Shown: positions 4,181 to 34,731 of the stretch, in pieces | How the letters are laid out: every line of letters starts with the position of its first letter | Numbering within the stretch: position 1 is the stretch's first letter | Assembly: GCA_032119875.1 (NCBI GenBank) | Contig: JAUMFK010000005.1 | Coordinates: 1 to 40,125 of the forward strand | Direction of reading: 5' to 3' | From: Rickettsiales bacterium | Lineage (GTDB): Bacteria; Pseudomonadota; Alphaproteobacteria; Rickettsiales; UBA1997 | Length of the DNA: 40,125 bases | The notes under the pieces: model-generated | Told to the model about the DNA's origin: nothing | Database searches by the model: none | The model's input: only the letters and a program-made list of their open reading frames with translations | Program-made: the position numbers and the translations under genes

Positions 4181-4209
4181 AAACAAATTTGGAATTCAAC
4201 ACTGTCATT
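4180..4209 (+). repeat. 30-nt motif, copy 1 (overlaps the stop codon of the giant gene)
   Basis: 'aaaacaaatttggaattcaacactgtcatt' matches 25/30 with copy 2 at 34702-34731. Confidence 0.55.
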
Positions 4210-7200
4210 CTTGAATGCACCCCATAGGATCTATATTTATATTATAGCCGTTTGAATTAGTATTCCAGCAGTTATATGCACCAGAACACATACCAGGACC
4301 GTTGAAACAACCCCAGTAATTAGTTGTGCAAGGCACATTAGGAGAAAAATAATAAACATAACTTAAATTATTTAGATTAGGAACTGTTGCTGGCAATCCG
4401 ACATATCCAGTTATTTGATTTACATTGCAACTATTCCATCTGCAATTTGCGCTCCAAGTTCCATTTGCCTGACAAACTGGATTAGATCCCGGATTGCTCG
4501 AACCATAACCAGAACTACCATTGCAAATTGCTGTGTTGCCATATACTCCTTCAAGAGAAGAATAATTACTGTTAGCAAGAGTGCCACAACGATTTATATT
4601 ACAACTGCCATTCCAGCTTCCGTTATTGCAAGTAGGATTAGTTGGTGTAATGCTAGAGCTATAACCAGTGTTACAAGTTGCGGTTTCGCCACTGAAATAA
4701 AATATTTTACCTCCATGGTTGGCATTTGAAATGTTAGAGGCAGAGCAACCGCTGGCAATATTCCATTTTGCTTTAAGGTAATTTTCGACTGCTGTTCTTT
4801 GAGTATCGGTAAGTGCTTGTTTATAAAGAATAACTTCGGCTATTTTGCCGTTTAAACTCCAAGCGATATCTAATTTTAGTTTATCTGAAGCATCTCCATC
4901 TGAAATAGTGTCAGATCCTGGTGTTTGTATTAATGATTGTGAATTTTGATAAATATATAAATTGTTAACATCTTTTTTAAGTGATACAATGATCGGATTA
5001 TATGTTGGGCTATATATGCCAATTCTAGAGCTGTTATAATTGCAACATGACCCAAAATCAAAGTATAAATTACCGCCCCAATATGCAGAAAATAAAAATC
5101 TTTGACTAAGTTTATTACCATGAAACACCACAGATCCAGAGTCTGTTATGGTGTCTACTTTTTGCACAACAAAAAGAGTGGCGGTATTTTTTGCAGATCC
5201 AACATTACCAAGTAGATTATTAATGTTTATTGCACCACGATCAAGATATACATCAGAAGATAACCAATCATTGCCATCTAATTGCAAAGTAGGATAACCA
5301 TTGATACCACTTGATGAATATCGTGGTTGATTAGCTGATAATGTTTGATTTACCTCAATTGCACTACCGCCTAAAGCATCGGGAGATTGACTTTTCCATT
5401 TAGAAATTGCGGCCCCATTTGCAGGAGCAGAACTGCCTCCAAAAGCCGCAATTGGATTATCTTTGGTTTCAAGCCATAGCGATGGAGTGAGTTGCTGTGG
5501 AAAATTAGCGGTAAGATTAGTGATAGATGACCAATTAGAGTTATCTGCACTTTCAAAAAAATTAAAAACAGCTCCGCCACCGTTTTCATAATACCATATA
5601 TCAACTGATGCCACATCTCCGATATTTAAATAAACTGGGCTAGATGAGTTTCTTAATTCATATCCTCTATCACCCCACCAAGAAAAAACTGTATTTCCAT
5701 TGATTGTAATTTGCACTCCATCATCTGTTCCTGCATTAAAATAATGATTTCCTGTTCGGGTTGCTTTATAATAACCAGTAAAATGAATCATCACATTATC
5801 GCTTCTGCCTGTATCTAATACATTGCCACTTCCCCAATTGTTAAGCATAGTTGTGATAATACCAGAGGTTAATTTAGTGCCAGAAGATGTGCTTGGAGAT
5901 GGTCCAGAAGAATATGAAAATGTTTCGTATTGTAAAGATGGAGAGATTGAAACATTAGCGGTAAGATTAGCGGTAGGTGACCAATTAGAATTATCTGCAC
6001 TTTCGTAAAATGCAAAATAAGCTCCGCCACCGTTTTGATAATACCATATATCAACTGGCACCACATCGCCGATATTTAAATAAATCGGGCTAGATGGAGC
6101 GCTAAATCCTTCTGGTCTATCGAACCAATCATTAATGATTAACTGATTATTAACAACAATTCTTACTCCATCATCTGTTGTTGCACCAAAATAATGGTTT
6201 CCTGTTCGGGTTGCTTTATAATAACCAGTAAAATGAATTACCACATTACTGGTTCTGCCTGTATCTAAAATAAAGTTTCCTGACCAATTATAAACCATAT
6301 TTGTGGTAATGCCAGAGGTGAGTCTACTGCCAAGCGAATATGTATTAGGACTCGATCCTAAAGATGCAAATGTTTCATAGTATAATCCCGATAATACAGC
6401 AGAAACATTAGAAGAAACATTAGGATAGCAACCGCTTAATGCAAGAGTGCCGTTGTTGCAAGTATATTGTGGGGCTCCTGCATAACCAGTGTTGCAATAA
6501 ACACCTGCAGCAGAGCTTGATGTTGTGTTGTGAATAAGTGATAAAGAAGTGCCAGAATATACTTTGTAAGATCCCCAATTAGTGATAGAGCCATCAGATT
6601 TTAAAACAACATTGCAGTTACTATTGCAATCGCTAGAAGATGAAATTGTGGCAGTAGTTGAGCTACCGCTTGTGTTATTGCAAGTATAAGTTGCAGTGGC
6701 GGTGCCGCTATAACCAGCAGCACAAGATAAACCTATTGCTTGCGGAGTTGATCCTGTGTAGTTATAGGTAAAGACACTTGGTAAAGTATAGCCAGCAGGT
6801 ATTACACTTGGGGCAATGCAGGTGTTGATGGCACAACTTCCGACAGTAATATTTGTGGTGCCAGAATTTGTGCAAAGAGCAGTGCCAGAGCCAGTTGTGG
6901 TTAAAGAATAACCAGTGCCACACGATAAACCAGAAATAGTAGTTGGTAATATTTGACCTGTTGTAATGGAATTTATTTTTGATGTTGTGGCACCTGCTCC
7001 AAAACTACCGCTTAATGATGCAGTGCAAGTATTGGCAGTGCAACCGCTTAATGTTGCTTGTGTTGACGATCCTACACTGCCAGAAAAACATGTATAAACA
7101 GGAGTGCCAGTATAGCCAGTAGCACAAGATGCTCCTGTAATTGGTTGCGAAGTTGCGGTATAATTAACATTTGCAGGCAGATTGCTATAGCCAGTAGTTG

Positions 7201-10200
7201 CAGGAACTGTGCAAGTGTTGATGGCACAACTTCCGACAGTAATATTTGTGGTAGGATTTGTGCAAATAGCAGTGCCAGAGCCAGTCCAAGTTTTGCTATA
7301 ACCAGTGCCACACAATAATGAGTTTGCAAGAGTTGTATTGGTTGATGCTAAACTAGTTGCTGTGGTTATAGATGTTGATGTTACGGCACCTGTTCCAAAA
7401 CTACCGCTTAATGATGCAGTGCAAGTGTTGGCAGTGCAGTTTCCGTTAATGGTTGCAGTTGAGCCATATCTAGTGCAGTTAACGGTAATAGTTCCGCTAT
7501 ATCCAGTATTGCAAGTAAGTGATTGATTATGGGTAAAAGATCCTGCAACACCTGTGTAGCCTGTGGCACTAGTTGTGCCATTGCATACTTTTGGTAAACT
7601 CCATTTTTCGGCTAAATAATTTTGTATGCCATTGATTTGTGCTTGATTAAGTGCATTGTTGTATATTAGCAGTTCAGCTATGTGTCCGCTATATGGTTCG
7701 GCATTGTTAAATTTTCTACCAACAACAAAATATGTATTGCCAGTTGATAATGATGATAAATCTTGTGAATTTGCGTTTGGAGCAAGATTGTTTGGAGAAG
7801 GTGAATTATTATAAAAAGAGAATGGAAGAGAAATTGTTTTATTAACTACAATTGCGGTGATGTATGGGTTGTTATTGGTTATTGATGGATAGCCGCTAGT
7901 ATTATCTAATCTATCTATATTTTGGCCACTAAAATTTGGATTACTGTTAACAATCATCATACCTGCTCTTGTGCCTGTTGTGAGTGTAGAAGAAGATGAG
8001 TTCTGCTCCATGATTACATAATATCCAGATGTTGCTGTTGGTTTATAAACTGCAATGAGAGTGTATTGCCCAGAGCCATTGGTTATTGGCATTGTATTTG
8101 TTATATCAGTGAATAATGAATTATTTGTTGTAAGAGTTCCATCAAAACTTAATGAAGGTTTGCTGATACCATCAAAACCAGTGGCATTATAGGTTGGTTG
8201 ATTAGCTGATGTTGATTGTTTTACTATTGTAGCACTGCCATTAGCACTAGTTACTTTACTACTCCAAGCCGAAACTTTATTGCTAGAATCTTTGGTGATG
8301 GTATCAAGATCTGAAGCATCAAGCCATAAAGTGAGTTGATTTCCTGTAATAGTAATATCGGTAGGTAAGCAAGTGCCAATACGATAAGTGGTGCTAGAAT
8401 TTGGGCAGTTGATATTATTGCTTTCGGTATAACAAACTTGATATGGATCATTAGTATTAATACAGGCAGGTATGGTATAAATAGGGTTTGGAGCAGTGAG
8501 AGGCCCTGCACCATCGGGATCGTTGCAAGTTAAAGTGCCATAGCTATTGCCTGTGCTGATGTTATTAATAGTGTTGCCAGCAAATAAAGCTACACTACAA
8601 CTATTAGCAGAGCAAGAGCCAACATTTACTTGTGTGTTTAAATCAATACACAATGCAGTTGTGCCACCTCTGGTAAGATTGCCATAACCTTTATTGCATA
8701 AAAAATGATTTGAAAAAGGTTCGGCAAAAATTGCATTGGTTTGACCTGTTGCTATAGTTTTAGCAATGCCGTTATATGTGCCGTTGCTTATAGAAGCATT
8801 ACAAATATTGGCATTGCAGTTGCTGGCATTGATTGTGGCATCGATTGGGTCATTGTTAGAAGATGTGTTATCGCAAGTGTAATTTACAGTGGCGGTGCCA
8901 TTATAACCAGTGGTGCAAGATGCTGATATAGATCCCGATCCATAATTAACAGGGTTGGTAGAATAGCTATAGCCAGTTGTTGCAGGAACTGTGCAGGTAT
9001 TGATGGTGCAACCGCTAGCAGATTGAATTGTAGCGGAGGTTGGATTGCTGTTTGTTTTATTGCAAAAATAATTTATTACAGGAGTTCCTCTATAACCAGT
9101 AGCACAAGATGCTCCTGTAATTTCTCGTGAAGTAACTAACCCTGTATAACTATATGTAAAACCACTTGGTAAAGTATAGCCAGTAGGTATTACACTTGGG
9201 GCAGTGCAGATGTTAAGAGTGCAACTTGCACTCCAGATTCCGTTATTGCAAGTAGGATTAGTTGGAGCAGTGCTAGAGCTATAACCAGTGTTACAAGTTG
9301 CAGTTTCGCCACTCATGTAGATTGTTTTGACTCCATGGTTGCCATTTAAAAGAGTAGAGGCAGAGCAACCGCTGGCAATATTCCATTTTGCTTTAAGATA
9401 GTTTTCAACTGCTGTTATTTGAGGATCGGTAAGGGCTTCTTTATAAACAAGAACTTCGGATATTTTGCCGTCAAAAACACTAGCAATATTTAAAGCTGTT
9501 GACACAGTGGGATCGATTGTAATAGTTGAAGTTGCAGCATTTGCTGTTGATTGCACTAATAATTGTGAATTTTGATAAGCATATAAATTGTTACCTTGTT
9601 TTTTGACTGATAAAATTGTTGGTTGATTTGTGAAGGCAGTTTTGTTAATTGAAGAAGAAGATGAATCACAACAAACTCCAAAATCAAAAAATAAACTATT
9701 GCTATCATATGCCCTAAGTGCAAATTGTTGATCAGAATAATATAATTTAAATGATTTAGAATTGGTGTTATTATTGACTTGTTGCACAACAAAAAGAGTG
9801 GCAGTATTTTTTGAGGCAAGATTACCAAGTAATTTATCAACACTAATATTGAGATTAGATAGATTATCACTACTATCAAATTGTAATGTAGGGAAAGAAT
9901 TGATACCATTTGATATATAGACTGGTCTGTTAGTTTCTGATGCTTGATTTACCTCAATTGCATTACCGCCCAAAGCATCGGGAGATTGGCTTTTCCACCT
10001 ATCAATTAAAGCCCTATTTGCAGGAGCGGCACTGCCTCCAAAAGCCGCCAGTGGATTATCTTTGGCTTCAAGCCATAGTGATGGAGTGAGTTGAGTTGAG
10101 CCAGTGTTAGGGTAACAACCGCTTAATGCAAGAAAATTATTTTGTCCTTGCTCTGTTTTACAAGTGTATTTTGGAGTGCCAGCATAACCAGTATTGCAAC

Positions 10201-13200
10201 TAATGTTTGAATTTATGGTAGGTATATTTATACGCAATAATGTAACATTTACTGTTGCTTTGTAAGCCTGCCAATTTGGTATAGTGCCAAGATTAACAGG
10301 GCAACCCATGAAACCAGGGCAATATCCTGGAAGACCACCCAAGCTATTACCGCAATCTACTTTACTTACACCTATATTTTGTTGTAATATTCCGCTAGGA
10401 CATTGAATTATCTTTTTTAAATAAGCATAATCAGCATTATGTAAAATATGTTCGCCTTCTATTATAGTGCCACCAGAAATACTGGCAGTAGCATTGCAAG
10501 TTTTACCAGAGCCACCACCACCGCCACCTGCCACTACAAGTGGTAAAATTGTTTTTGTAGCTGGTTTTACCAAAGCAATCACACTTGCCTCACCGCCGCC
10601 GCCTGCATAGCCAAATTCTTTTTTATAAACATTATAATCTTGGCTTTCACGATGCGAGCCCCCAGCAAAAAATCTATAAGGATTAACCTCGGTAGAATTT
10701 TTTCCACCAGCTCCCACAATAATTTTCAAGGTATAAAAATCGGGGCTTGTATAATAAGCTGAATTAGCACTAATTTTAAAACCATTTGCATTTGTAATAG
10801 TAAGTTCTGTAGCATTTCTACCATCGATATTATAATCTAGCGATGCAGGAGTATAATTATATGAAGCACCGCCACCTCCACCAATAATTGTGATTTTAGT
10901 AATTTTGCTATCTTTTTGAATTGTTAGATGATAAACTCCTTGATTATCATATGTTAATGATTGCCCATCTAAAAACTCAATAACAACTTTACCTTGCTTG
11001 CCATTTTCAGGAATTTGTGCTGGTTTTGTTAGATCTAATTCAGCCTGCTGACCGCCACAACCATTTGTATCGCTTGGGCAAATGATTGGCGTTTCTATTT
11101 TTGTGAGGGGAGTAGCACCAACATCAAAACAATTATCGCAAACTTCATTAATACCGTTAGTGCCTTGCAAATTATATTCTGCGATACGACCAGAACTTTG
11201 TGATGGATCATAAGAAGCATAATATTCTCCTCCAGTTGCTTTGTTTATTCTATATTTTTTAGGATAACTTTTATTATTATTTACTACCCTTGCCGCTTTT
11301 TGTAAAGAACAAGCATTTTGAGTATTAAATTTTACAAAACCAGATTGAGTAGCGGTAAACAAAACAAAAGGATGAACAGTGTATTTTAAGCCATTGCAGT
11401 TTACTGTTGTTTTTGTTGTTATTTTTAATGTTGTATTTGGATATATTATTAAATTGTCATTACCATCTTTTACAACAGGATAGTTTGATTTGTTAAAATC
11501 GGTAAGAGAAATATTAATCATACATGCAGCAGGAGTACCAACAGGAATAATAAGTTTTACATACAAAGGTATTAAAGTTGAATCATCTTTATATGGAGAT
11601 CCAGTAACATCATAGTTTGTTATTTTTTCTCTTAGTTTATCATATGTTAATGCAACAACATAATTACCCGAATCAGAAGTAAATGAAACATCTTGTGGTT
11701 CAGATGCAGTATTATTGCTAAAAACGAGTTGTTCTGTTTTTGGTGGCGAAACAGCGGCAACAACAACTCTTCTGGTATAGTTAGCAATTTTCACTTGCTC
11801 TTTTTCAGATTCGTATTTTGTTGTTATGTCAAATCTATTATCAGATTGATTCTTATATTGACATTGAAGAGGTGCAGAGGAAGTTTCGCAAGCAAAATCT
11901 GTTTGCGATATTGTTGTTTGTGGATGTATTTTTATATAACATGAATTTTGACATTGTTCATCATCATCAGATGGAACACCGGCAATGGCAGCTTTTTCTG
12001 AATTCTTAAGTGGGCGATAGAAGTTTATTTTAGTTCTATTAGGCTCAGAAACACTTGCAATGTCTAAAGAGACATTTGGTTTATATTGAGTTTTTTGTTT
12101 TAAAGACATAGTCTTTGATGTTGCACAATCCTCGCCGAGCAATGAAAAACCATAAATATGTTTATCAGGTAAAGAAGTGTTAGAAACAAGATGACAAAGA
12201 CTAGTGGTTGAGGTGCCTAAAGTAATCTCACCAGTTGCCTGAATTTCTACTTTTGAGCCAGCAGATATTTGCAAACCGCCACTTGAATTTGGAGAAAATT
12301 TTAAAGTAGTAGACTTCCAAGGTGGCATAAATTTATCTTGCCAATCTATATCTTCTACCGATGGTATCAAAAAACAATTTTCTCCTGATTGTTCGCACAA
12401 AGCTTTGATACTTAAAATTTGTGGAGGAGAATTAATATCTTCGTAAATAAAAGATTGGCTATTAGTAATTTGTTTTACTTTGATTTTATATTCATTACTC
12501 GAACTAACTATTTCTAAATTAGAATTAGTGCCAAAATGATGTTGAGTATCGGTTGTTATTGTTCTGTCGTTAGTATTAATTCCGCCCTGCTGCTTGATTT
12601 TAACATAATCAAATATCGCTATTGCCTTAGCATCATTTATTACTGTTGATGTTGAGGTTGGTGCTGTTATAAAAAAATTTTTAAATTCAGCCTTATCAAT
12701 AAGATCTGATACCTTAATTTGACAAGTAAATGTATCTCTTGATAAATTACAACTATCAAAATTATCTATCAATATTTGTTTTTTTAATATTTTGCCTTCT
12801 CCTTCATCAATGGCAATGGCAATTGCCAGAGCTAATTTTTTTGTGTAAGCAGGATTTTGCAATTTACTAAATATCGTCTTTAATTCACTACCGCTATCAT
12901 CCCAACTAAAAGTGTAGATAAAATCGTCTTGTACAACATCCTTTTTAGCATTAAGAGAAGAGTTGACAATAAATAAATTACCATCTAGGTCATGTTTTAA
13001 AATAGATTTGCCAGTGTAAGGGTTAAATATATCGTATTCATCAAAAGAATCACGAGCAGAAGAAATAGCGACATCTGTTGCTCCATTTTTTATTTGTAAT
13101 CGGCTTGCAACATGGCTACAAGCTCTATGCTTTCTGCATCGTTGCACACAACTATCTATACATTGATTTTGAACATCAACAAGATTTAAAGGATTACTTG

Positions 13201-13813
13201 GTGGTGTGGGTGGTTGTTGCCAAGTAGAAGAACTAGAAAACAAATACTCATTAGTTGCTAGGATAATTGGTTGAGCTGCTTCAGATTTAGTTTTAAAGTT
13301 ACAGCCTTTATTTTTATAGTTTGTATCATTAGGTTTTACACAGCTTAATTCATCTAAGGTAAGTTCATTTGCAATATCATTATTCAAAAAACGACAATTT
13401 TTATTTTGTCCTTGTATATTTATATAGCCATCGTAAGATTCTTCGCAATGTTCTACTCCTTGAGCTCCGTTTAAACAATAAAGTAAATCTTTGTTAAAAC
13501 TAGAAAAACCACCTGTTTCTAATATTTTATATGAACATTCATCGGTTTGATCGTTTGCAGATCTAAACGATAATACATCAAATCTTTCGATATCTTCAAA
13601 ACCAAAATCATCTGCCTCAATGCAAATACCTTTTCTATTATCGCAAGCACACAAAATAAAAAGGCAAACAAGCAAAAATATTTTTAATGAATAAATTTTA
13701 ATATTATTAAACAAGATACCAAATTGATTATTGTTGCAGAAAGTGTTTTTATAATAAAATTTTATCGTAATTATAAAAAAGTAATTTAGCAAGAGAAATT
13801 TGCTAGTTTTCAT
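4205..13813 (-). CDS. Giant (3,202 aa) mosaic secreted or lipoprotein-like adhesin candidate: glycine-rich block, 3 LamG-like, 2 PA14 and about 15 CCP/Sushi-like four-Cys modules
   Basis: Uninterrupted 9,609-nt ORF. Its ATG overlaps the znuC stop by 11 nt. Domain motifs were read from the translation (see sub-features). Opposite-strand ORFs inside it are short and low-complexity. Confidence 0.85.
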   Translation of the reverse strand: MKTSKFLLLNYFFIITIKFYYKNTFCNNNQFGILFNNIKIYSLKIFLLVCLFILCACDNRKGICIEADDFGFEDIERFDVLSFRSANDQTDECSYKILETGGFSSFNKDLLYCLNGAQGVEHCEESYDGYINIQGQNKNCRFLNNDIANELTLDELSCVKPNDTNYKNKGCNFKTKSEAAQPIILATNEYLFSSSSTWQQPPTPPSNPLNLVDVQNQCIDSCVQRCRKHRACSHVASRLQIKNGATDVAISSARDSFDEYDIFNPYTGKSILKHDLDGNLFIVNSSLNAKKDVVQDDFIYTFSWDDSGSELKTIFSKLQNPAYTKKLALAIAIAIDEGEGKILKKQILIDNFDSCNLSRDTFTCQIKVSDLIDKAEFKNFFITAPTSTSTVINDAKAIAIFDYVKIKQQGGINTNDRTITTDTQHHFGTNSNLEIVSSSNEYKIKVKQITNSQSFIYEDINSPPQILSIKALCEQSGENCFLIPSVEDIDWQDKFMPPWKSTTLKFSPNSSGGLQISAGSKVEIQATGEITLGTSTTSLCHLVSNTSLPDKHIYGFSLLGEDCATSKTMSLKQKTQYKPNVSLDIASVSEPNRTKINFYRPLKNSEKAAIAGVPSDDDEQCQNSCYIKIHPQTTISQTDFACETSSAPLQCQYKNQSDNRFDITTKYESEKEQVKIANYTRRVVVAAVSPPKTEQLVFSNNTASEPQDVSFTSDSGNYVVALTYDKLREKITNYDVTGSPYKDDSTLIPLYVKLIIPVGTPAACMINISLTDFNKSNYPVVKDGNDNLIIYPNTTLKITTKTTVNCNGLKYTVHPFVLFTATQSGFVKFNTQNACSLQKAARVVNNNKSYPKKYRINKATGGEYYASYDPSQSSGRIAEYNLQGTNGINEVCDNCFDVGATPLTKIETPIICPSDTNGCGGQQAELDLTKPAQIPENGKQGKVVIEFLDGQSLTYDNQGVYHLTIQKDSKITKITIIGGGGGASYNYTPASLDYNIDGRNATELTITNANGFKISANSAYYTSPDFYTLKIIVGAGGKNSTEVNPYRFFAGGSHRESQDYNVYKKEFGYAGGGGEASVIALVKPATKTILPLVVAGGGGGGSGKTCNATASISGGTIIEGEHILHNADYAYLKKIIQCPSGILQQNIGVSKVDCGNSLGGLPGYCPGFMGCPVNLGTIPNWQAYKATVNVTLLRINIPTINSNISCNTGYAGTPKYTCKTEQGQNNFLALSGCYPNTGSTQLTPSLWLEAKDNPLAAFGGSAAPANRALIDRWKSQSPDALGGNAIEVNQASETNRPVYISNGINSFPTLQFDSSDNLSNLNISVDKLLGNLASKNTATLFVVQQVNNNTNSKSFKLYYSDQQFALRAYDSNSLFFDFGVCCDSSSSSINKTAFTNQPTILSVKKQGNNLYAYQNSQLLVQSTANAATSTITIDPTVSTALNIASVFDGKISEVLVYKEALTDPQITAVENYLKAKWNIASGCSASTLLNGNHGVKTIYMSGETATCNTGYSSSTAPTNPTCNNGIWSASCTLNICTAPSVIPTGYTLPSGFTYSYTGLVTSREITGASCATGYRGTPVINYFCNKTNSNPTSATIQSASGCTINTCTVPATTGYSYSTNPVNYGSGSISASCTTGYNGTATVNYTCDNTSSNNDPIDATINASNCNANICNASISNGTYNGIAKTIATGQTNAIFAEPFSNHFLCNKGYGNLTRGGTTALCIDLNTQVNVGSCSANSCSVALFAGNTINNISTGNSYGTLTCNDPDGAGPLTAPNPIYTIPACINTNDPYQVCYTESNNINCPNSSTTYRIGTCLPTDITITGNQLTLWLDASDLDTITKDSSNKVSAWSSKVTSANGSATIVKQSTSANQPTYNATGFDGISKPSLSFDGTLTTNNSLFTDITNTMPITNGSGQYTLIAVYKPTATSGYYVIMEQNSSSSTLTTGTRAGMMIVNSNPNFSGQNIDRLDNTSGYPSITNNNPYITAIVVNKTISLPFSFYNNSPSPNNLAPNANSQDLSSLSTGNTYFVVGRKFNNAEPYSGHIAELLIYNNALNQAQINGIQNYLAEKWSLPKVCNGTTSATGYTGVAGSFTHNQSLTCNTGYSGTITVNCTRYGSTATINGNCTANTCTASLSGSFGTGAVTSTSITTATSLASTNTTLANSLLCGTGYSKTWTGSGTAICTNPTTNITVGSCAINTCTVPATTGYSNLPANVNYTATSQPITGASCATGYTGTPVYTCFSGSVGSSTQATLSGCTANTCTASLSGSFGAGATTSKINSITTGQILPTTISGLSCGTGYSLTTTGSGTALCTNSGTTNITVGSCAINTCIAPSVIPAGYTLPSVFTYNYTGSTPQAIGLSCAAGYSGTATATYTCNNTSGSSTTATISSSSDCNSNCNVVLKSDGSITNWGSYKVYSGTSLSLIHNTTSSSAAGVYCNTGYAGAPQYTCNNGTLALSGCYPNVSSNVSAVLSGLYYETFASLGSSPNTYSLGSRLTSGITTNMVYNWSGNFILDTGRTSNVVIHFTGYYKATRTGNHYFGATTDDGVRIVVNNQLIINDWFDRPEGFSAPSSPIYLNIGDVVPVDIWYYQNGGGAYFAFYESADNSNWSPTANLTANVSISPSLQYETFSYSSGPSPSTSSGTKLTSGIITTMLNNWGSGNVLDTGRSDNVMIHFTGYYKATRTGNHYFNAGTDDGVQITINGNTVFSWWGDRGYELRNSSSPVYLNIGDVASVDIWYYENGGGAVFNFFESADNSNWSSITNLTANFPQQLTPSLWLETKDNPIAAFGGSSAPANGAAISKWKSQSPDALGGSAIEVNQTLSANQPRYSSSGINGYPTLQLDGNDWLSSDVYLDRGAININNLLGNVGSAKNTATLFVVQKVDTITDSGSVVFHGNKLSQRFLFSAYWGGNLYFDFGSCCNYNSSRIGIYSPTYNPIIVSLKKDVNNLYIYQNSQSLIQTPGSDTISDGDASDKLKLDIAWSLNGKIAEVILYKQALTDTQRTAVENYLKAKWNIASGCSASNISNANHGGKIFYFSGETATCNTGYSSSITPTNPTCNNGSWNGSCNINRCGTLANSNYSSLEGVYGNTAICNGSSGYGSSNPGSNPVCQANGTWSANCRWNSCNVNQITGYVGLPATVPNLNNLSYVYYFSPNVPCTTNYWGCFNGPGMCSGAYNCWNTNSNGYNINIDPMGCIQE
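4208..4756 (-). repeat. C-terminal array of about 3 CCP/Sushi-like modules (giant protein)
   Basis: 'ATCNTGYSSSITPTNPTCNNGSWNGSC' and 'AICNGSSGYGSSNPGSNPVCQANGTWSANC', followed by a Cys/Trp/Asn-rich tail ending 'MGCIQE'. Confidence 0.5.
4757..5502 (-). other. LamG-like module 3 of the giant protein (close paralogue of module 1)
   Basis: Runs from 'LTPSLWLETKDNPIAAFGGSSAPANGAAISKWKSQSPDALGGSAIEVNQ' to 'GKIAEVILYKQALTDTQRTAVENYLKAKWNI'. The DNA is highly similar to 9377-10110. Confidence 0.7.
5503..5935 (-). other. PA14-like module 2 of the giant protein (tandem with module 1)
   Basis: 'LQYETF..MIHFTGYYKATRTGNHYFNAGTDDGVQITINGNTVFSWW..VYLNIGDVASVDIWYYENGGGAVFNF'. Confidence 0.65.
5936..6388 (-). 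other. PA14-like module 1 of the giant protein
   Basis: 'GLYYETF..VIHFTGYYKATRTGNHYFGATTDDGVRIVVNNQLIINDW..IYLNIGDVVPVDIWYYQNGGGAYFAF'. This shows the PA14 pattern G.YY, G.Y.F, DDG, Y.enGG.a. Confidence 0.65.
6389..7597 (-). repeat. Array of about 6 four-Cys CCP/Sushi-like modules (giant protein), including a 396-nt tandem duplication (7043-7438 / about 6647-7042)
   Basis: 'LTCNTGYSGTITVNCTRYG', 'ASCATGYTGTPVYTCFSG..LSGC', 'LSCAAGYSGTATATYTCNNT' and 'VYCNTGYAGAPQYTCNNGTLALSGC'. An identical 33-mer lies at 7394-7426 and 6998-7030. An identical 38-mer lies at 7215-7252 and 6832-6869. Confidence 0.5.
7598..8345 (-). other. LamG-like module 2 of the giant protein
   Basis: Runs from 'LTLWLDASDLDTITKDSSNKVSAWSSKV..NQPTYNATGFDGISKPSLSFDG' to 'GHIAELLIYNNALNQAQINGIQNYLAEKWSL'. 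Confidence 0.7.
8346..9376 (-). repeat. Array of about 5 four-Cys CCP/Sushi-like modules (giant protein)
   Basis: Modules of 55-85 aa. Examples: 'ATCNTGYSSSTAPTNPTCNNGIWSASC', 'ASCATGYRGTPVINYFCNKT..SASGC', 'ASCTTGYNGTATVNYTCDNT..NASNC'. Confidence 0.5.
9377..10110 (-). other. LamG-like (concanavalin-A-like jelly roll) module 1 of the giant protein
   Basis: Runs from 'LTPSLWLEAKDNP..IDRWKSQSPDALGGNAIEVNQ..NRPVY..NGINSFPTLQFD' to 'GKISEVLVYKEALTDPQITAVENYLKAKWNI'. This is the pattern I associate with bacterial Laminin_G_3-type modules. Confidence 0.7.
10450..10900 (-). other. Glycine-rich domain of the giant protein (four strand + poly-Gly units)
   Basis: 'ITIIGGGGGASYNY', 'KIIVGAGGKNS', 'FGYAGGGGEASVIALV' and 'LVVAGGGGGGSGKTC', spaced about 35-50 aa apart. 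Confidence 0.5.
13643..13813 (-). other. N-terminal export signal of the giant protein with a lipobox-like 'LFILCAC'
   Basis: Two hydrophobic stretches in aa 1-57: 'FLLLNYFFIITI' and 'IFLLVCLFILCAC'. These are followed by polar 'DNRKG'. L-x-[A/G]-C resembles a lipoprotein box, but Cys at position -2 is atypical. Confidence 0.4.
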
Positions 13814-14552
13814 GCTTATGATAATGCATATGCTGATATAAAGCTATTTCAAGATGCTGTTTTGCTAAATCTACCCCAAATAAATTAAGATATTCTGGAT
13901 GCTTACTAATATCTTGCGGGCTACCATGGCAACAAATATGCTGATTAATACAAAAAACATGATCTGTTTTTTGCATTACCAAATTAAGATCGTGAGAAAC
14001 TAGCAAAATAGAGCATTTCCAAATGTTTTTAATATAATTTAACAGATAGTAAAATCGGTTAATTGCTATAATATCCATAAATTGAGTTGGCTCATCTAAA
14101 ACTAACAAAGTATTTTGTTTGTTAACAACCTCTACTTGGCTTGCGATTGCCCTTAATAACATAATTTTTTGCAACTGCCCACCAGAAAGTTGTGCCAGTT
14201 GCTTTGTTAGCAAATCGGAGATTTGCATTTGGTTTATGAGATCGAGAAAGAAAGTATCGTTTAAAGCTTTTTTATTAGTTAAATTTAGCAAATCAAGAGA
14301 AGTCATGGGAATATGATAGTCTAGATTTATTTTTTGAGGCATATAGCCAAAATATATGTTTTTTTGCCGAATAATATTGCCAGATGTTGGTTTAATAAGT
14401 TGCAAAATAATTTTTAGCAACGAAGTTTTGCCCCCGCCATTTGGACCAATAACAGTGGTGATTTGTTCTTGTTTGATATTTAGAGATATATTGTTTAAAA
14501 TTTTTTGCTTATTTGATTTTAAACTAATATTTTCTAAAGTAATTAATGCCAT
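13803..14552 (-). CDS. znuC: Zinc-import ABC transporter ATP-binding protein ZnuC
   Basis: Walker A 'GPNGGGKTS', signature 'LSGGQLQK', Walker B 'LLVLDEPT'. ZnuC-like 'VSHDLNLVMQKTDHVFCINQHICCHG' and a His-rich tail 'YQHMHYHKHEN'. Confidence 0.75.
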   Translation of the reverse strand: MALITLENISLKSNKQKILNNISLNIKQEQITTVIGPNGGGKTSLLKIILQLIKPTSGNIIRQKNIYFGYMPQKINLDYHIPMTSLDLLNLTNKKALNDTFFLDLINQMQISDLLTKQLAQLSGGQLQKIMLLRAIASQVEVVNKQNTLLVLDEPTQFMDIIAINRFYYLLNYIKNIWKCSILLVSHDLNLVMQKTDHVFCINQHICCHGSPQDISKHPEYLNLFGVDLAKQHLEIALYQHMHYHKHEN

Positions 14553-19347: not shown

Positions 19348-21927
19348 CTATTGCATAAAGTTTTTAACTTTCAAAAATTCTAGGTTATTATCTTCTATTT
19401 TTTCATCTGTATAAATAACGATATACTTAAATTTATTCTCCTGAATTCCTTCAAGATAACTTATAGCTTTTTTCTTGTTTAAAACTTGCTTATCTTTATT
19501 TTTATCTTTAGCTTTGATTTCAACAATTAAAAACTCACCATTTTGTTTAGTTATAATAAAATCTGGAAAATAATTATGATATTTGCCATCTTCGCCTTTG
19601 TATGCAAAATAAAAATCAGTTTTCTTGGTATCTTTTATTGAGCCAGTAAAATAAACATCATCTATATCTTTTTTATCAAGTTGCAGAATATTTAAAATTT
19701 TCGTAAAAAAATTCTTTTCTGGCTTTGAATCAAAATCATAAACACTTAGATGAAAGCCTAGATTTTCGTCTTTATGCTCAACTAATAATTTTTCTCGCTC
19801 ACTTCCTTCTTTAAACTTTATTGTATGATAAAAAACTCCATTTTCATCTTTTTGAAAATTATAATTACCATCTTTGTCTTGAATTTTAATAATTGCCAAA
19901 ACTTCTTTAATTTTTTCTTTGGTTATTTTATATTCGCTAAACTGTTTTTCTGTTTGCTCAAATAAATGTTGCAAATCAATTGCTGGTAATGTTTTATTTG
20001 GATAAATTTTTATCAATTCGTTAAATATTTCTTGATAACTAATATGATAATTTTGTGCAATTTTAACAGTAGCATTAAAAATGCCGATGTCATTTTGTAT
20101 ATTTTTAACTTTATTGGCAAAGCTAGATTCTTTTAATTCGCCATTTTCAAGGCGATATGAAGTTTTGTGCAATTGATTTTCAAAAGCAACTGGCTTGGTT
20201 AAAACAAGCGATTTTTTATTTTGCACCTCATTTCTGACGATTTTACTAATTTCTTTAATAATTTCTAATTTTGGCATTTGATATTTTCTAATTATCGCTT
20301 TTTTTTCGATTATTTTATTGGCATCTGGCTTGCTAAAATCATCAATAGAAATATTAAAATTTTCGCGCAGTTCTCTATCTAAAATTTCAATATTTTTGCT
20401 AGATAAATAAATTTTTGCTCTTGCTTTATTTTCTTTTACTTGTCTTAAACATCTGGTGCTGGCTTGTAAGATGAAATTATTCGAAGAAGATGCCTCTCTA
20501 ATTAAGGCGGTAGCGAAAAGACTAGGGCAGTTCCAACCTTCTTTGCCTTTGTCAATCAACAAAATTATTCTTTTTTGCGAATCTGGTTTATTGAGATTAT
20601 TAAAATCTTCGATTTCGTTTTTGTTAGATTCTTGAGTATTGACCAAAATCAAGGTTAAGCTCTGTGAAATATTGCCCAAAGTTTTTTCGATCAAAAATTT
20701 ACAATGTTGTAAATGCTGTTCGTTTTTAAAGTAAAAAGCAATTTTTGCCATTTGTCCAGAATAGAGCCTTAATTCGCCATAATTTAGAAAAAAATCTTCA
20801 ATAATATCTTTAATAATTCTTTCTTCATTTTCTTCGTTAAAATCGTAAGAAATAATATTATCTTTAACCGATTTTAAAATATTATCTCTGATTCCTTCTT
20901 CTAAAGAATACCAAAAAACCACTTCTTTTAACGGTTCTTTTTTAAAATAAGGAGTGCCAGTTGTGTTAATAACACAAACCAAATCTTTGTTTTTATGAAT
21001 ATGATTTATAGTTTCCCTCACTCTTTTTAAACTATCGCCAAGATTGTTACCATAAGTGTTGTGAGCTTCATCAGAGAAGATGCCAAGCCCATCAAGATTA
21101 GTTATTTTTTGTAATCTTAAATTTTCGGTTAATTTTTTTTCTTCAGTTTTTTGATTAAATAAATCATTTTTTAAAGTGGTATTTTTTAAAATAATTTTTT
21201 CAGAATTAGTAACCAAAATATTATAAATTCCTCTTTCTTCAACTCCATCAAACCTTTTATCACCGTCTTTGGTGTAATTTATTTTTAAATTAGGGGCGAG
21301 TTTTTTAAATAATCTTGCTGGCAAAATTTTATCAAAAGCAATGTCAGAAATTTCATGTAGTGATTCGATAATAGTTTTACCGGGGGCAAATATCAAGGCA
21401 TTTTGCATAAATTTAAAATCAGCAGGTTTTTCTTGCTCATCAAAATCAATAGCAATAGCAAATTCAATGGCAATTATTGAGCCAATTAAAATTGTTTTGC
21501 CTGTTCCCATTGCCAAAGCTAAAATATAGCTAGCATAATCAAGGTTTAGGGCTTCGTGCAGAGTTTGATATTTATATTTTTTTACAAATTCTAAATCAGT
21601 TTTAATTTTTTCTAAAATTTTATCTAAATCAACATCGTCAATTGCATCTTTATTAACATGGGTTATGCCAAGAGTTTTAAAAAGAGCAATTTTATCATCT
21701 GCAAAAAGTGTTTTGTAAAGCTCAATTGTTTGCGGAGTTTTTAAAATAAATCGCAAATATAAATAGCTTTCAATTGCTTCAAATTGTGGTTTGCGAAGAA
21801 ACTTAAAAGAGCCATCTTCTAATTTATTATAATTTAAAATTTCTTTAATTTGTGAAAATTCTGTGCTGTAATAATTTTGTTGTCTCCAAGCGGTTATTTT
21901 TTCTTGTAATTTTGTAAATAAAGTCAT
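19348..21927 (-). CDS. res: Type III restriction enzyme Res subunit-like (SF2 DEAH helicase with C-terminal PD-(D/E)xK nuclease)
   Basis: Motif I 'LAMGTGKT', motif II 'IFSDEAHN', motif III 'INTTGTP'. C-terminal 'YFPDFIITKQNGEFLIVEIKAK' (PD...ExK). ATGA overlap with the upstream gene. Confidence 0.75.
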   Translation of the reverse strand: MTLFTKLQEKITAWRQQNYYSTEFSQIKEILNYNKLEDGSFKFLRKPQFEAIESYLYLRFILKTPQTIELYKTLFADDKIALFKTLGITHVNKDAIDDVDLDKILEKIKTDLEFVKKYKYQTLHEALNLDYASYILALAMGTGKTILIGSIIAIEFAIAIDFDEQEKPADFKFMQNALIFAPGKTIIESLHEISDIAFDKILPARLFKKLAPNLKINYTKDGDKRFDGVEERGIYNILVTNSEKIILKNTTLKNDLFNQKTEEKKLTENLRLQKITNLDGLGIFSDEAHNTYGNNLGDSLKRVRETINHIHKNKDLVCVINTTGTPYFKKEPLKEVVFWYSLEEGIRDNILKSVKDNIISYDFNEENEERIIKDIIEDFFLNYGELRLYSGQMAKIAFYFKNEQHLQHCKFLIEKTLGNISQSLTLILVNTQESNKNEIEDFNNLNKPDSQKRIILLIDKGKEGWNCPSLFATALIREASSSNNFILQASTRCLRQVKENKARAKIYLSSKNIEILDRELRENFNISIDDFSKPDANKIIEKKAIIRKYQMPKLEIIKEISKIVRNEVQNKKSLVLTKPVAFENQLHKTSYRLENGELKESSFANKVKNIQNDIGIFNATVKIAQNYHISYQEIFNELIKIYPNKTLPAIDLQHLFEQTEKQFSEYKITKEKIKEVLAIIKIQDKDGNYNFQKDENGVFYHTIKFKEGSEREKLLVEHKDENLGFHLSVYDFDSKPEKNFFTKILNILQLDKKDIDDVYFTGSIKDTKKTDFYFAYKGEDGKYHNYFPDFIITKQNGEFLIVEIKAKDKNKDKQVLNKKKAISYLEGIQENKFKYIVIYTDEKIEDNNLEFLKVKNFMQ

Positions 21928-22817
21928 GTTAATTTTTTATCGTTTTTTTTAAGTTTTGTTAACCGATTTTTTAGCGATTCTTTTGGTGGTAAAAAATTTG
22001 ATTCATCAACAATTTTTTTGTGAGTTTTTTCTTCAAGAGCAATTCTGGCATCAAGGGCAATTTTACCGCCTTTTTTAGCAGGAATTTTATTTTGCTCAAA
22101 ACCCTTACTTTGCAAATTTTCGGCAATTTGTCTTGTTGCAAGTTCTGCTAAAGCTGTAAAAATCAACTCTGCCTCGTTCATATGATCTCTTAAATTATGT
22201 TGTTTTAAATTTTTTAATTTTTTATGTTGAGATACACTTATACCTGACCATTCTTGATGAATAATGTTAGTTAATGTTACAAATTCTTGACCCTCTTTAA
22301 CATCATTATTTTTCCAATAATCGGTGAGTTTATTTCGAGTTTCTTGACCAGTCATTCTTTGAGCAATCCATTTTTCACTTCTGCCTAATTTTTGCCAATT
22401 TTGTCTTGCTCGTTGTAATGAAATTTCAGGATCGGCAATTTCATTGATTCTTTCATTGCCAATTTTGGCTAACCACATTTTTATTGGCTCGGCTTTTGGG
22501 CTTGGAATTAATTGAATAAGACGAAAAATATTTTCTAAATCAGTAACATCAGTGTTATAAAATTTACCATCTTTGGCGATCATTTTCAGTTGGTTACAAT
22601 TTGTAACCAACTTACTTCCTTCTTTTGATAATCGATGTTTTAAAACTTTCCAATAATTTTTAGCTAGAGAGTAATCATTCTGATTTGTTAGCACTGCAAC
22701 AATATCAATAATTGAAAAAAACCATTTTTGTTTTTCTTCGTCAAAATGTTTTCTGATTGAGAAATTTTCAAAAATTTCTAATTTATTTAGTTGATTATTT
22801 GTAGATTTTTTATTCAT
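21924..22817 (-). CDS. Bro-N domain / DinD-like (DNA-damage-inducible protein D-like) protein embedded in the R-M operon
   Basis: The N-terminus 'FENFSIRKHFDEEKQKWFFSIIDIVAVLT' is Bro-N-like. The C-terminal half ('LRDHMNEAELIFTALAELATRQIAE..GGKIALDARIALEEKT') aligns by eye with E. coli DinD ('LDHMGSTELAANLFRATQTEEKL..VGRKVRQTIQELGG'). Confidence 0.55.
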   Translation of the reverse strand: MNKKSTNNQLNKLEIFENFSIRKHFDEEKQKWFFSIIDIVAVLTNQNDYSLAKNYWKVLKHRLSKEGSKLVTNCNQLKMIAKDGKFYNTDVTDLENIFRLIQLIPSPKAEPIKMWLAKIGNERINEIADPEISLQRARQNWQKLGRSEKWIAQRMTGQETRNKLTDYWKNNDVKEGQEFVTLTNIIHQEWSGISVSQHKKLKNLKQHNLRDHMNEAELIFTALAELATRQIAENLQSKGFEQNKIPAKKGGKIALDARIALEEKTHKKIVDESNFLPPKESLKNRLTKLKKNDKKLT

Positions 22818-22843
22818 AGGAATTTTATTTGTGGTTAATAAAT

Positions 22844-34701: not shown

Positions 34702-34731
34702 AAAACAAATTTGCGATGCAACAGTGCCATT
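34702..34731 (+). repeat. 30-nt motif, copy 2 (overlaps the stop codon of the 473-aa orphan gene)
   Basis: 'aaaacaaatttgcgatgcaacagtgccatt'. Confidence 0.6.

What the first reader, a model, noticed from the sequence alone, without database searches (positions are those of the whole stretch)
6389..9376. About 15 four-cysteine modules resembling complement-control-protein (Sushi/SCR) repeats in a bacterial protein
The modules are 55-70 aa each and follow the pattern C-x(20-35)-C-x-[TK]-G-Y-x-G-x(5-10)-C-x(8-16)-C. Examples are 'ASCATGYRGTPVINYFCNKTNSNPTSATIQSASGC', 'VYCNTGYAGAPQYTCNNGTLALSGC' and 'LTCNTGYSGTITVNCTRYGSTATINGNC'.

Three modules also keep a Trp between Cys3 and Cys4: 'TCNNGIWSASC' (about 9230-9350), and 'TCNNGSWNGSC' and 'VCQANGTWSANC' (both in 4208-4756). 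That matches the canonical CCP signature C..GY.L.G...C...G.W....P.C. One more module lies at about 10111-10449.

CCP domains are overwhelmingly metazoan or viral. Bacterial cases are rare and are usually read as host mimicry or horizontal transfer. The alternative is a distinct bacterial disulfide-rich repeat that converged on the same Cys spacing.
Basis: partly seen in the sequence, partly recalled or inferred. Interest (0 to 1): 0.65.

Follow-up and report, generated by a model that had tools for sequence, protein, structure and literature searches.

The report
Divergent Sushi/CCP-like repeats in bacterial giant protein
A 3,200-residue predicted lipoprotein of a low-GC Rickettsiales-type bacterium carries 15 small four-cysteine modules that are most likely very divergent relatives of the Sushi/complement-control-protein domain of animals and protists, strung between lectin-like domains as expected for a giant host-attachment protein.

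Summary
The modules are real. One ORF (window 4205-13813, minus strand, 3202 aa) holds 13 clear and 2 degenerate four-Cys modules of 49-71 aa. Ten clear ones plus one degenerate lie in the reported span, not about 15. Most linkers are four residues (C-x-x-N-x-C).

Pfam's Sushi model (PF00084) does not detect them, even at E<=10. Four other tests point to CCP:
- A profile of the modules against all PDB sequences returns 37 CCP proteins among 38 hits.
- The same profile against 1.84 billion proteins returns 264 hits. 52 of 85 scanned are Pfam Sushi.
- Profile-profile comparison gives 91-95% probability with all four Cys aligned. Permuted controls score far lower.
- AlphaFold models are confident and all-beta. 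Foldseek's top 18 PDB hits and top 6 viral hits are all CCP proteins, at weak E-values (0.01-1).

Only 3 of 15 modules keep the hallmark Trp. Disulfide topology could not be checked.

The arrays alternate with three LamG-like and two PA14 domains behind a lipoprotein signal. The gene is syntenic in related Rickettsiales MAGs but evolves much faster than its neighbours. Best reading: a giant envelope adhesin with a divergent, mostly Trp-less CCP variant as its stalk. Complement mimicry is unsupported, and the origin (gene transfer or ancient) is unresolved.

The parts
4205..13813 (-). Giant ORF of 3202 aa as listed. The real start is probably the TTG at nt 13714, giving about 3169 aa.
   Evidence: ORF list and translation. 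Three homologues begin at the position equivalent to aa 34, 'MFNNIKIYSLKIF...'. The codon there is TTG.
13643..13714 (-). Predicted lipoprotein signal peptide, (M)FNNIKIYSLKIFLLVCLFILCA|C, with lipobox L-C-A-C and Asp at +2.
   Evidence: Read from the sequence. C57-D58-N59-R60-K61 are invariant in 4 homologues. No signal-peptide predictor was run.
10304..13642 (-). Conserved N-terminal region (aa 58-1170) of unknown fold. It includes a Cys-rich start and a poly-Gly segment (aa 975-1105).
   Evidence: No Pfam or PDB match apart from a sub-threshold Gly_rich_2 hit, E=0.04. It is the best-conserved part among homologues.
10115..10303 (-). Module M0 (aa 1171-1233), an isolated CCP-like module.
9368..10108 (-). 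LamG/ConA-like lectin domain 1 (aa 1236-1482).
   Evidence: Pfam Laminin_G_3, E=1.7e-4, 22.2 bits, below the 27.6-bit cut-off. 59% identical to LamG3+M12.
8612..9367 (-). Array 1, modules M1-M4 (aa 1483-1734): M1 9221-9367, M2 9008-9208, M3 8816-8995, M4 8612-8803. Linkers CTLNIC, CTINTC, CNANIC.
   Evidence: AlphaFold model of M1-M2, pLDDT 84. Foldseek top hits are CCP.
8369..8599 (-). Degenerate module M5 plus two further Cys (aa 1739-1815). It lacks the G-Y motif.
   Evidence: Not matched by the module HMM.
7586..8368 (-). LamG/ConA-like lectin domain 2 (aa 1816-2076).
   Evidence: Pfam Laminin_G_3: whole-protein score 27.8 bits against a 27.6-bit cut-off, with the best stretch at aa 1914-2061. 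The segment alone scores 24.3 bits.
6428..7585 (-). Array 2, modules M6-M11 (aa 2077-2462): M6 7436-7585, M7 7226-7423, M8 7040-7213, M9 6833-7027, M10 6626-6820, M11 6428-6616. Linkers CTANTC, CAINTC, CTANTC, CAINTC, CNSNC.
   Evidence: AlphaFold model of M8, pLDDT 87.
5519..6427 (-). Two tandem PA14 domains (aa 2463-2765).
   Evidence: Pfam PA14, 2.2e-22, two stretches. PDB sequence matches to PA14 domains of RsgI3 and a Lap adhesin. The two copies are 59% identical.
4748..5518 (-). LamG-like domain 3 (aa 2766-3022), a paralogue of domain 1.
   Evidence: 59% aa and 74.5% nt identity to LamG1+M1. No Pfam hit of its own.
4217..4747 (-). Array 3, modules M12-M14 (aa 3023-3199): M12 4601-4747 and M13 4442-4588, both with Trp, and M14 4217-4429 with six Cys.
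13803..14552 (-). Upstream neighbour, a ZnuC-like ABC ATPase. It overlaps the listed ORF start. Probably unrelated to the giant protein's function but syntenic with it in relatives.
   Evidence: NCBIfam ZnuC, 4e-66, below cut-off. The znuC-giant gene order is kept in L001-L004.

Best explanation
The span encodes two tandem arrays of small disulfide-type modules, each with four invariant Cys and an all-beta predicted fold. They are highly divergent, mostly Trp-less members of the CCP/Sushi/SCR fold superfamily. Four more modules lie elsewhere in the same protein.

The protein is a giant (about 3,170-3,200 aa) predicted lipoprotein of a low-GC bacterium. Database records label its closest relatives Rickettsiales. 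The arrays alternate with three ConA-like/LamG domains and two PA14 domains, both carbohydrate-binding folds.

Most likely mechanism (inferred, not shown):
- The protein is exported by Sec and lipid-anchored in the envelope.
- Its Cys pairs are oxidised in the periplasm.
- The CCP-like arrays form elongated beads-on-a-string stalks joined by fixed four-residue linkers. The stalks space and project the lectin-like domains, and may bind ligands themselves.
- The whole protein thus acts as an adhesin towards a eukaryotic host or prey surface.

The gene grew by internal duplication and evolves much faster than its neighbours, as expected for an exposed interaction protein.
For: Shown:
1. The repeat is real. 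Four Cys are invariant over 40 modules, G-Y is nearly invariant, and linkers follow C-x-x-N-x-C. Shuffles give about 0 matches.
2. A profile of 13 modules against 177,635 PDB sequences gave 38 hits at E<=10. 37 are CCP proteins: factor H (8e-5), CD55, vaccinia VCP, OPG190, CR1, FHR.
3. A profile of 40 modules against 1.84 billion proteins gave 264 hits at E<=1e-3. The top hit is a Branchiostoma multi-CCP protein (9e-64). 52 of 85 scanned hits are Pfam Sushi, including LamG_3+Sushi proteins with the same domain pairing.
4. hhalign against canonical Trp-type modules gives probability 91%, P=9e-7, with Cys1-4 on CCP Cys I-IV. Against Trp-less modules it gives 95%, P=5e-8. 150 column-permuted controls scored 7.2 +/- 1.5 (max 13.2), against 29.3 observed.
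5. AlphaFold: M8 has pLDDT 87 and M1-M2 has pLDDT 84, both all-beta. Foldseek against the PDB puts 18 CCP-containing structures on top (1vvc E=0.021, prob 0.94). Single-module superpositions on factor H CCP7 give rmsd 3.0-3.1 A and TM 0.48-0.53. In BFVD the top 6 are all pox- or herpesvirus CCP proteins.
6. A canonical-type Sushi HMM puts 13 weak hits on 13 of the 15 modules (M0-M4, M6-M13) and none elsewhere in the 3202 aa.
7. Architecture: PA14 x2 is strong. Laminin_G_3 is at or below threshold.
8. The lipobox is invariant in homologues.
9. Neighbouring proteins ZnuC, NuoD, FtsW, GshA and PanC are 87-96% identical to L001 with the same gene order. The giant protein is only about 47% identical and differs by more than 1,000 aa in length.
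10. Internal paralogy: LamG1+M1 vs LamG3+M12 59%, PA14a vs PA14b 59%, M7 vs M9 68%.
Against: - Pfam PF00084 gives no hit for the whole protein or for 10 single modules at E<=10.
- Every single-domain score is weak. The best is 11 bits in the PDB search and at most 15.7 bits with a canonical HMM. The significant E-values come from summing repeats, and HMMER sums are inflated on repetitive, biased sequences. Spurious hits such as Thiolase_C on a repeat protein show this.
- The canonical sets used for hhalign and for the forward HMM were drawn from hits to the module profile. That favours similarity.
- In the forward search the whole-protein score is only 13.6 bits after bias correction, against a shuffled maximum of 10.0.
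- Foldseek E-values are 0.01-1, and the single-module model gave no hit at all.
- 12 of 15 modules lack the Trp, and the Pro residues flanking Cys1 and Cys4 are mostly absent.
- Disulfide connectivity was not examined because no coordinates were available.
- The adhesin function, surface exposure and carbohydrate binding are inferences from domain content only. Asp at +2 would mean inner-membrane retention under E. coli rules.
Confidence: 0.72

Rival explanations
1. Convergence. The modules are an independent bacterial disulfide-rich beta repeat. They share only the C-x-x-G-Y...C motif and the Cys spacing with CCP and have no common ancestry.
For: No PF00084 signal. The high-confidence hhalign core covers only Cys2-Cys4, 26-29 columns. 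The N-terminal half aligns only at low confidence. Trp is missing in 12 of 15 modules. Foldseek E-values are not significant on their own.
Against: - The hit lists are essentially pure CCP in three unrelated libraries.
- Pfam-certified Sushi proteins match the module profile over its full length, positions 1-58: P0013, P0015, P0016, P0017.
- Those Sushi proteins share extra traits with the window's protein. P0017 has C-x-x-N-x-C linkers and P0016 pairs the modules with LamG_3.
- The three short modules carry N-G after Cys1, G-Y after Cys2 and G-x-W after Cys3 in canonical register.
- Permuted controls exclude a composition effect.
Confidence: 0.13
2. Recent horizontal acquisition from a eukaryotic host, used for molecular mimicry. 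In the strongest form the modules mimic regulators of complement activation to evade host immunity.
For: - CCP is far commoner in eukaryotes.
- Trp-less modules of similar pattern (C-x-A-P-x-x-x-x-G-Y...C-A-x-G-Y-x-G-T...L-S-G-C) occur in dinoflagellates. The P0007 cluster includes Symbiodinium CAE7221278.1.
- Protist proteins combine LamG_3 with Sushi.
- GC3 of the arrays (0.27-0.29) is above that of the rest of the gene (0.17-0.21).
Against: - The GC3 of the arrays is within the range of housekeeping genes in the window (EF-G 0.27, NuoD 0.26).
- The gene is vertically syntenic in at least four related loci, and other proteobacterial MAGs carry the modules (P0082, NBR95660.1). Any transfer is therefore old.
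- No module is close to a particular eukaryotic sequence. The best non-family BLAST hits are other MAG proteins.
- The contig names of the related loci and metagenome hits look like environmental metagenome samples. Hosts with complement are therefore unlikely. This is an inference, and sample metadata were not read.
Confidence: 0.1
3. The protein is not an adhesin. It could be a periplasmic or envelope structural protein, or an enzyme or toxin carrier whose active part is the uncharacterised N-terminal 1,100 residues. The CCP-like arrays would then be mere spacers.
For: - The N-terminal region is the most conserved part and has no detectable family.
- Asp at +2 of the lipobox signals inner-membrane retention in E. 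coli. This rests on established Lol-sorting knowledge, not on a test here.
Against: - PA14 and LamG folds are typical of ligand-binding tips of large adhesins. The PDB matches include a Lap adhesin PA14 domain.
- Fast divergence and length variation among close relatives fit an exposed, selected surface.
- The +2 rule is not general outside Enterobacteria. This is from the reporter's own knowledge.
Confidence: 0.2

Closest known systems
CCP / Sushi / SCR domain (Pfam PF00084; e.g. factor H, CD55/DAF, CD46, vaccinia VCP)
   Same: - Module of about 50-65 residues with four invariant Cys.
- G-[YF] three residues after Cys2.
- G-x-W after Cys3 in 3 modules.
- Tandem arrays joined by 4-residue linkers.
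- All-beta predicted fold.
- CCP structures are the best, and almost the only, structural and PDB-sequence matches.
   Different: - Below every Pfam threshold.
- Trp is absent in 12 of 15 modules.
- Pro after Cys1 and before Cys4 is mostly absent.
- Many modules have long Thr/Ser/Asn/Gly-rich insertions between Cys1 and Cys2.
- The linker carries an invariant Asn.
- The host is a bacterium and the partner domains are LamG_3 and PA14.
Trp-less CCP-like repeats of protists (e.g. Symbiodinium proteins in the cluster of P0007, CAE7221278.1 'PNC1')
   Same: The pattern C-x-A-P-x(3-4)-G-Y...C-A-x-G-Y-x-G-T-A...L-S-G-C resembles the window's long modules M2, M3, M8 and M10. These repeats are also missed by Pfam Sushi. 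hhalign of the module profile against Trp-less modules gives 95%.
   Different: Eukaryotic origin, different linkers and acidic rather than Thr/Asn-rich loops. No LamG or PA14 partners were seen in the sequences read.
LamG_3 + Sushi proteins from unassigned metagenome contigs (P0016) and Sushi arrays with C-x-x-N-x-C linkers (P0017)
   Same: P0016 has a Laminin_G_3 domain followed by a CCP array. P0017 has linkers CNINSC, CIANTC and the like. Both are Pfam Sushi-positive and match the module profile end to end.
   Different: Their modules keep the Trp and pass Pfam. Their source organisms are unknown.
Giant repetitive bacterial adhesins with PA14 or lectin tips (e.g. Lap/RTX-type adhesins; PDB 6m8m PA14 domain)
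   Same: A very long protein made of a repetitive stalk plus PA14 sugar-binding-type domains. One search matches the PA14 region to a 'large adhesion protein (Lap)'.
   Different: Those adhesins use Ig-like (BIg) stalk repeats, RTX/T1SS secretion signals and no disulfides (reporter's own knowledge). Here the stalk is Cys-rich and CCP-like, entry is by a lipoprotein signal, and no T1SS genes are adjacent.

Membership tests
CCP/Sushi/SCR (PF00084, SM00032) | Scores above the curated Pfam gathering threshold (20.7 bits) | tested here: not met
   No PF00084 hit at E<=10 for the whole protein or for 10 single modules. A canonical-type HMM built here gives at most 15.7 bits per module.
CCP/Sushi/SCR (PF00084, SM00032) | About 60-residue module with four invariant Cys in CCP-like spacing | tested here: met
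   Modules are 49-71 aa. The four Cys are invariant in 40 modules and align with Cys I-IV of canonical modules in hhalign.
CCP/Sushi/SCR (PF00084, SM00032) | Disulfides Cys1-Cys3 and Cys2-Cys4 | not testable with these tools
   Model coordinates are not returned by structure prediction, so no SG-SG distances could be measured.
CCP/Sushi/SCR (PF00084, SM00032) | Near-invariant Trp between Cys3 and Cys4 | tested here: not met
   Present in M1, M12 and M13 only, 3 of 15.
CCP/Sushi/SCR (PF00084, SM00032) | Conserved G-[YF] after Cys2 (C-x-x-G-Y) | tested here: met
   G and Y are conserved in at least 90% of 40 modules. They are present in 13 of the window's 15 modules and absent in M5 and M14.
CCP/Sushi/SCR (PF00084, SM00032) | Tandem modules joined by short (3-8 residue) linkers | tested here: met
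   Nine of the ten listed linkers in the window's three arrays have exactly 4 residues between Cys4 and the next Cys1, and one has 3.
CCP/Sushi/SCR (PF00084, SM00032) | Compact beta-sandwich fold superposable on solved CCP modules | tested here: inconclusive
   The models are all-beta with pLDDT 84-87. The top 18 PDB and top 6 BFVD Foldseek hits are all CCP (best prob 0.94, single-module rmsd about 3 A, TM about 0.5). However, E-values are 0.01-1 and the single-module query found nothing.
CCP/Sushi/SCR (PF00084, SM00032) | Detectable sequence homology to certified members (reverse profile and profile-profile) | tested here: met
   PDB: 37 of 38 hits are CCP. 52 of 85 library hits are Pfam Sushi. 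hhalign 91-95% against a permuted-control maximum score of 13.2. Caveat: the scores are sums of weak repeats, and the target sets were chosen from hits.
PA14 domain (PF07691) | Pfam score above threshold | tested here: met
   79.9 bits against a 24-bit cut-off, two copies at aa 2476-2750. PDB PA14 matches.
ConA-like lectin / Laminin_G_3 (PF13385) | Pfam score above threshold (27.6 bits) | tested here: inconclusive
   The whole protein scores 27.8 bits, just above the cut-off. Single domains score 22-24 bits and the third has no hit.
Bacterial lipoprotein | Signal peptide ending in a lipobox [LVI][ASTVI][GAS]C | tested here: inconclusive
   The sequence 'IFLLVCLFILCA|C' is read directly and is conserved in 4 homologues. 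Position -2 is Cys, which is atypical. No predictor such as SignalP or LipoP was available.

The most novel reading that the evidence does not exclude
The modules would define a previously unrecognised, mostly Trp-less branch of the CCP fold. It would be shared by environmental Rickettsiales-type bacteria, other proteobacterial MAGs and protists such as dinoflagellates, and be invisible to current domain models. This would mean either old interdomain transfer between protists and their bacterial associates, or a pre-metazoan (possibly prokaryotic) history for the 'complement' module. The giant LamG/PA14/CCP lipoprotein would then be the host-attachment device of a host-associated Rickettsiales lineage whose lifestyle (extracellular or intracellular) was not established here.
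Probability: 0.3. Interest if true: 0.65.

Novelty: new variant of a known kind. Interest (0 to 1): 0.45.

Why it matters
The CCP/Sushi module is usually taught as an animal (and animal-virus) extracellular module. A bacterial lineage with arrays of a divergent form would have several consequences:
- It shows that current domain libraries miss a whole branch of the fold. The same modules go unannotated in other MAG proteins and in dinoflagellate proteins.
- It gives a handle on how host-associated Rickettsiales-type bacteria attach to their hosts. Little is known about adhesins of the environmental lineages.
- It offers material for asking whether CCP modules moved between protists and bacteria.

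It does not overturn anything. Eukaryote-like extracellular domains in host-associated bacteria are a familiar theme.

Tried and rejected
- Direct Pfam and NCBIfam scans of the whole protein and of single modules gave no Sushi hit.
- Foldseek with the single-module model returned 0 matches at E<=10. This was judged uninformative because the query has only 60 residues.
- Word-indexed homologue search with array 2 found only one fragment.
- Alignment A4 (overlapping triple modules) came out staggered. Alignment A6 (single modules against a pair) tore modules apart. Both were discarded. The in-register pair alignment A7 was used instead.
- The upstream ABC ATPase was tested as a possible secretion or Lol partner. 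It is ZnuC-like, so the idea was dropped.
- An HGT signal from composition was sought. GC3 of the arrays is raised but stays within the genome's range.
- PDB profile and Pfam segment scans of the N-terminal 1,100 aa gave nothing usable.
- Literature searches for Sushi/CCP in Rickettsiales or bacteria found no relevant paper.
- Complement mimicry was considered and rejected for lack of any support.

Full report
**What is there.** The finding lies inside a single minus-strand ORF, window 4205-13813, of 3202 aa.
- Three homologues begin at the equivalent of residue 34, and that codon is TTG. The true start is therefore probably nt 13714.
- The new N-terminus, MFNNIKIYSLKIFLLVCLFILCA|CDNRKG, looks like a lipoprotein signal with lipobox L-C-A-C. 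The residues C-D-N-R-K after it are invariant in all four full-length proteins.
- The flanking genes are ordinary bacterial genes: HflK/C, DegP, a ZnuC-like ATPase, PanC, NuoD, GshA, FtsW, EF-G, L20, NadA, a TonB-dependent receptor and an NtrC-type regulator.
- The DNA has about 30% G+C. The gene is bacterial and not a eukaryotic contaminant.

**The modules.** Cys mapping and a self-built HMM define 15 modules.
- M0: aa 1171-1233.
- M1-M4: aa 1483-1734.
- M5: a degenerate module, aa 1739-1815.
- M6-M11: aa 2077-2462.
- M12-M14: aa 3023-3199.

The reported span (aa 1480-2475) holds 10 clear modules plus M5, not about 15, and a 260-aa LamG-like domain splits it. A relaxed form fits 13, against 0.08 on average (maximum 2) in 2000 shuffles. 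Across 40 modules from five related proteins the four Cys are invariant and G-Y after Cys2 is at least 90% conserved. Nine of the ten listed linkers in the window's arrays have exactly four residues, consensus C-T-[AI]-N-T-C. The Asn is invariant in 20 aligned module pairs.

**Is it CCP? Direct test.** Pfam finds only PA14 and Laminin_G_3 in the protein. PF00084 gives nothing at E<=10, whether the whole protein or ten single modules are scanned.

**Is it CCP? Reverse and structural tests.**
1. A profile of 13 modules searched against all 177,635 distinct PDB sequences gave 38 hits at E<=10. 37 are CCP proteins: factor H (8e-5), CD55, vaccinia VCP, OPG190, CR1 and FHRs. The other is an antibody chain.
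2. A profile of 40 modules was scored against 1.84 billion representative proteins with no word filter. It gave 264 proteins at E<=1e-3 and 60 at E<=1e-10.
   - The best outsider is a Branchiostoma protein with about 50 textbook CCPs.
   - Of 85 hits scanned with Pfam, 52 are Sushi.
   - Certified Sushi proteins matched over the full module length include P0017, whose linkers are CNINSC/CIANTC like those here, and P0016, which pairs Laminin_G_3 with a CCP array as here.
3. hhalign of the module alignment against canonical Trp-type modules gives probability 91% (P=9e-7). Against Trp-less modules it gives 95% (P=5e-8). With a permissive alignment the four Cys fall on CCP Cys I-IV. 150 column-permuted controls scored 7.2 +/- 1.5 (maximum 13.2), against 29.3 observed. 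Cys-rich composition is therefore not the cause.
4. A canonical-type HMM run forwards puts 13 weak hits (at most 15.7 bits) on 13 of the 15 modules and none elsewhere in 3202 residues. This explains why Pfam's 20.7-bit cut-off is never reached.
5. AlphaFold gives confident all-beta models: M8 at pLDDT 87 and M1-M2 at pLDDT 84.
   - The 60-residue model was too small for Foldseek and gave no hits.
   - For the two-module model, the top 18 PDB matches all contain CCP modules: VCP 1vvc (E=0.021, prob 0.94), CD55, CD46, factor H, CR2, FHR1, MPXV B6, PAPP-A, MASP-2 and C5b6.
   - Single-module superpositions on factor H CCP7 give rmsd 3.0-3.1 A, TM 0.48-0.53 and 27-29% identity.
   - In BFVD the top six are all poxvirus or herpesvirus CCP proteins.

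**Weaknesses of this evidence.**
- Each single-domain match is weak, and significance comes from summing repeats.
- HMMER sums on repetitive, biased proteins can be inflated. Spurious Pfam hits on such proteins are visible.
- The canonical sets for hhalign and the forward HMM were taken from proteins already selected by the module profile.
- Foldseek E-values are not significant individually.
- Only 3 of 15 modules keep the Trp.
- The 1-3/2-4 disulfide pattern could not be checked because coordinates are not returned.

I put the probability that these are true, highly divergent CCP-superfamily modules at about 0.8, and convergence at about 0.13.

**Protein context.** The order along the protein is:
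- signal and lipobox;
- a conserved region of about 1,100 aa with no recognisable family, containing only a sub-threshold Gly_rich_2 hit in a poly-Gly segment;
- M0, then LamG-like domain 1, then M1-M5;
- LamG-like domain 2, then M6-M11;
- two PA14 domains at 2.2e-22, which also match PDB PA14 domains including a Lap adhesin;
- LamG-like domain 3, then M12-M14.

Internal paralogy is clear: LamG1+M1 vs LamG3+M12 are 59% identical in aa and 74.5% in nt, the two PA14 copies 59%, and M7 vs M9 68%. The homologues are 1,762-2,053 aa and cover only 35-51% of the query. The window's copy therefore grew by internal duplication.

**Distribution and evolution.**
- Only a handful of relatives exist. Three full-length proteins and one fragment turned up in 5.8 billion clusters.
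- Two loci come from species-representative genomes. Their records are titled 'Rickettsiales bacterium' and, implausibly, 'Rickettsia typhi' MAG.
- Four metagenome loci were found, one of them 96% identical.
- In L001-L004 the gene follows znuC, as in the window. In L001 the neighbouring proteins are 87-96% identical, while the giant protein is about 47% identical. It is vertically inherited in this clade but evolves very fast.
- Related modules with the same LamG junction (...LWLEAKDN...) occur in another proteobacterial MAG protein, P0082 / NBR95660.1. They also occur in several metagenome fragments, none of them Pfam Sushi-positive.
- Trp-less modules with a similar pattern occur in dinoflagellates, in the Symbiodinium cluster of P0007.
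- GC3 of the arrays (0.27-0.29) exceeds that of the rest of the gene (0.17-0.21). It stays within the range of housekeeping genes here, so there is no sign of recent transfer.

**Function (inference).** The following together point to an envelope-anchored adhesin:
- a lipid-anchor signal;
- two kinds of carbohydrate-binding folds (PA14, ConA-like);
- long arrays of small disulfide modules with fixed short linkers;
- rapid divergence and length variation.

In this reading the CCP-like arrays are semi-rigid stalks or spacers, and possibly binding sites themselves. Extracellular, host-attached Rickettsiales with putative adhesins are discussed in PMC10847448. No paper in the library links Sushi domains to Rickettsiales.

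Surface exposure is not shown. Asp at +2 would argue for inner-membrane retention under E. coli rules. The adjacent ABC ATPase is ZnuC-like and gives no clue to export. Mimicry of complement regulators has no support.

**Verdict.** The CCP-like interpretation is supported as a divergent, mostly Trp-less bacterial variant that current Pfam models miss. Novelty is moderate: a new variant of a known kind. Interest is about 0.45.

Noticed in passing
window 19348-24664 (- strand): Three adjacent genes sit between ftsW and fusA. They look like an inserted restriction-modification or mobile islet, in DNA of low G+C (0.27-0.30):
- an 859-aa protein with ResIII helicase and TnsA-like endonuclease domains, and a weak BPTD_3080 restriction-endonuclease hit;
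- a 297-aa Bro-N domain protein;
- a 606-aa N6/N4 DNA methylase.

In relative L001 the ORF upstream of ftsW is a different size, but it was not identified.
   Followed up: partly
window 13714 (- strand): The giant ORF as listed starts at the ATG at 13813 and overlaps the stop of the upstream znuC-like gene. Homologues and the signal-peptide logic indicate the real start is the TTG 33 codons downstream.
   Followed up: yes
window 34730-36151 (- strand): A 473-aa ORF next to a TonB-dependent receptor has no Pfam or NCBIfam match. It has the lowest GC3 in the window, 0.14.
   Followed up: no
window 10800-10900 approx. (aa 975-1105 of the giant protein): A segment carries several poly-Gly runs (IIGGGGGAS, GYAGGGGEAS, VVAGGGGGGSGKT) separated by beta-like stretches. 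It gives only a sub-threshold Pfam Gly_rich_2 hit (E=0.04). It is conserved in all homologues and may be a glycine-rich domain of the kind seen in phage fibre proteins.
   Followed up: partly
L001 (CAMAWV010000003.1): The record title calls this MAG 'Rickettsia typhi'. The contig carries gshA, panC and a giant LamG/CCP-like lipoprotein, and it is syntenic with the window. The species label looks wrong; 'Rickettsiales' at most.
   Followed up: no
linkers between modules, e.g. window 7214-7225, 7028-7039, 8996-9007: The residue two positions before Cys1 of the next module is an invariant Asn (C-x-x-N-x-C) in 20 aligned module pairs. The same linker Asn is seen in the Pfam-positive Sushi array P0017. 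Its role (inter-module packing, or a modification site) is unknown.
   Followed up: no
P0007, P0009, P0014, P0023, P0045, P0116, P0130 (library hits): A large set of protist proteins consists of tandem Trp-less four-Cys modules that Pfam does not annotate as Sushi. At least one cluster contains Symbiodinium sequences. Pfam instead gave a spurious Thiolase_C hit on P0007.
   Followed up: partly
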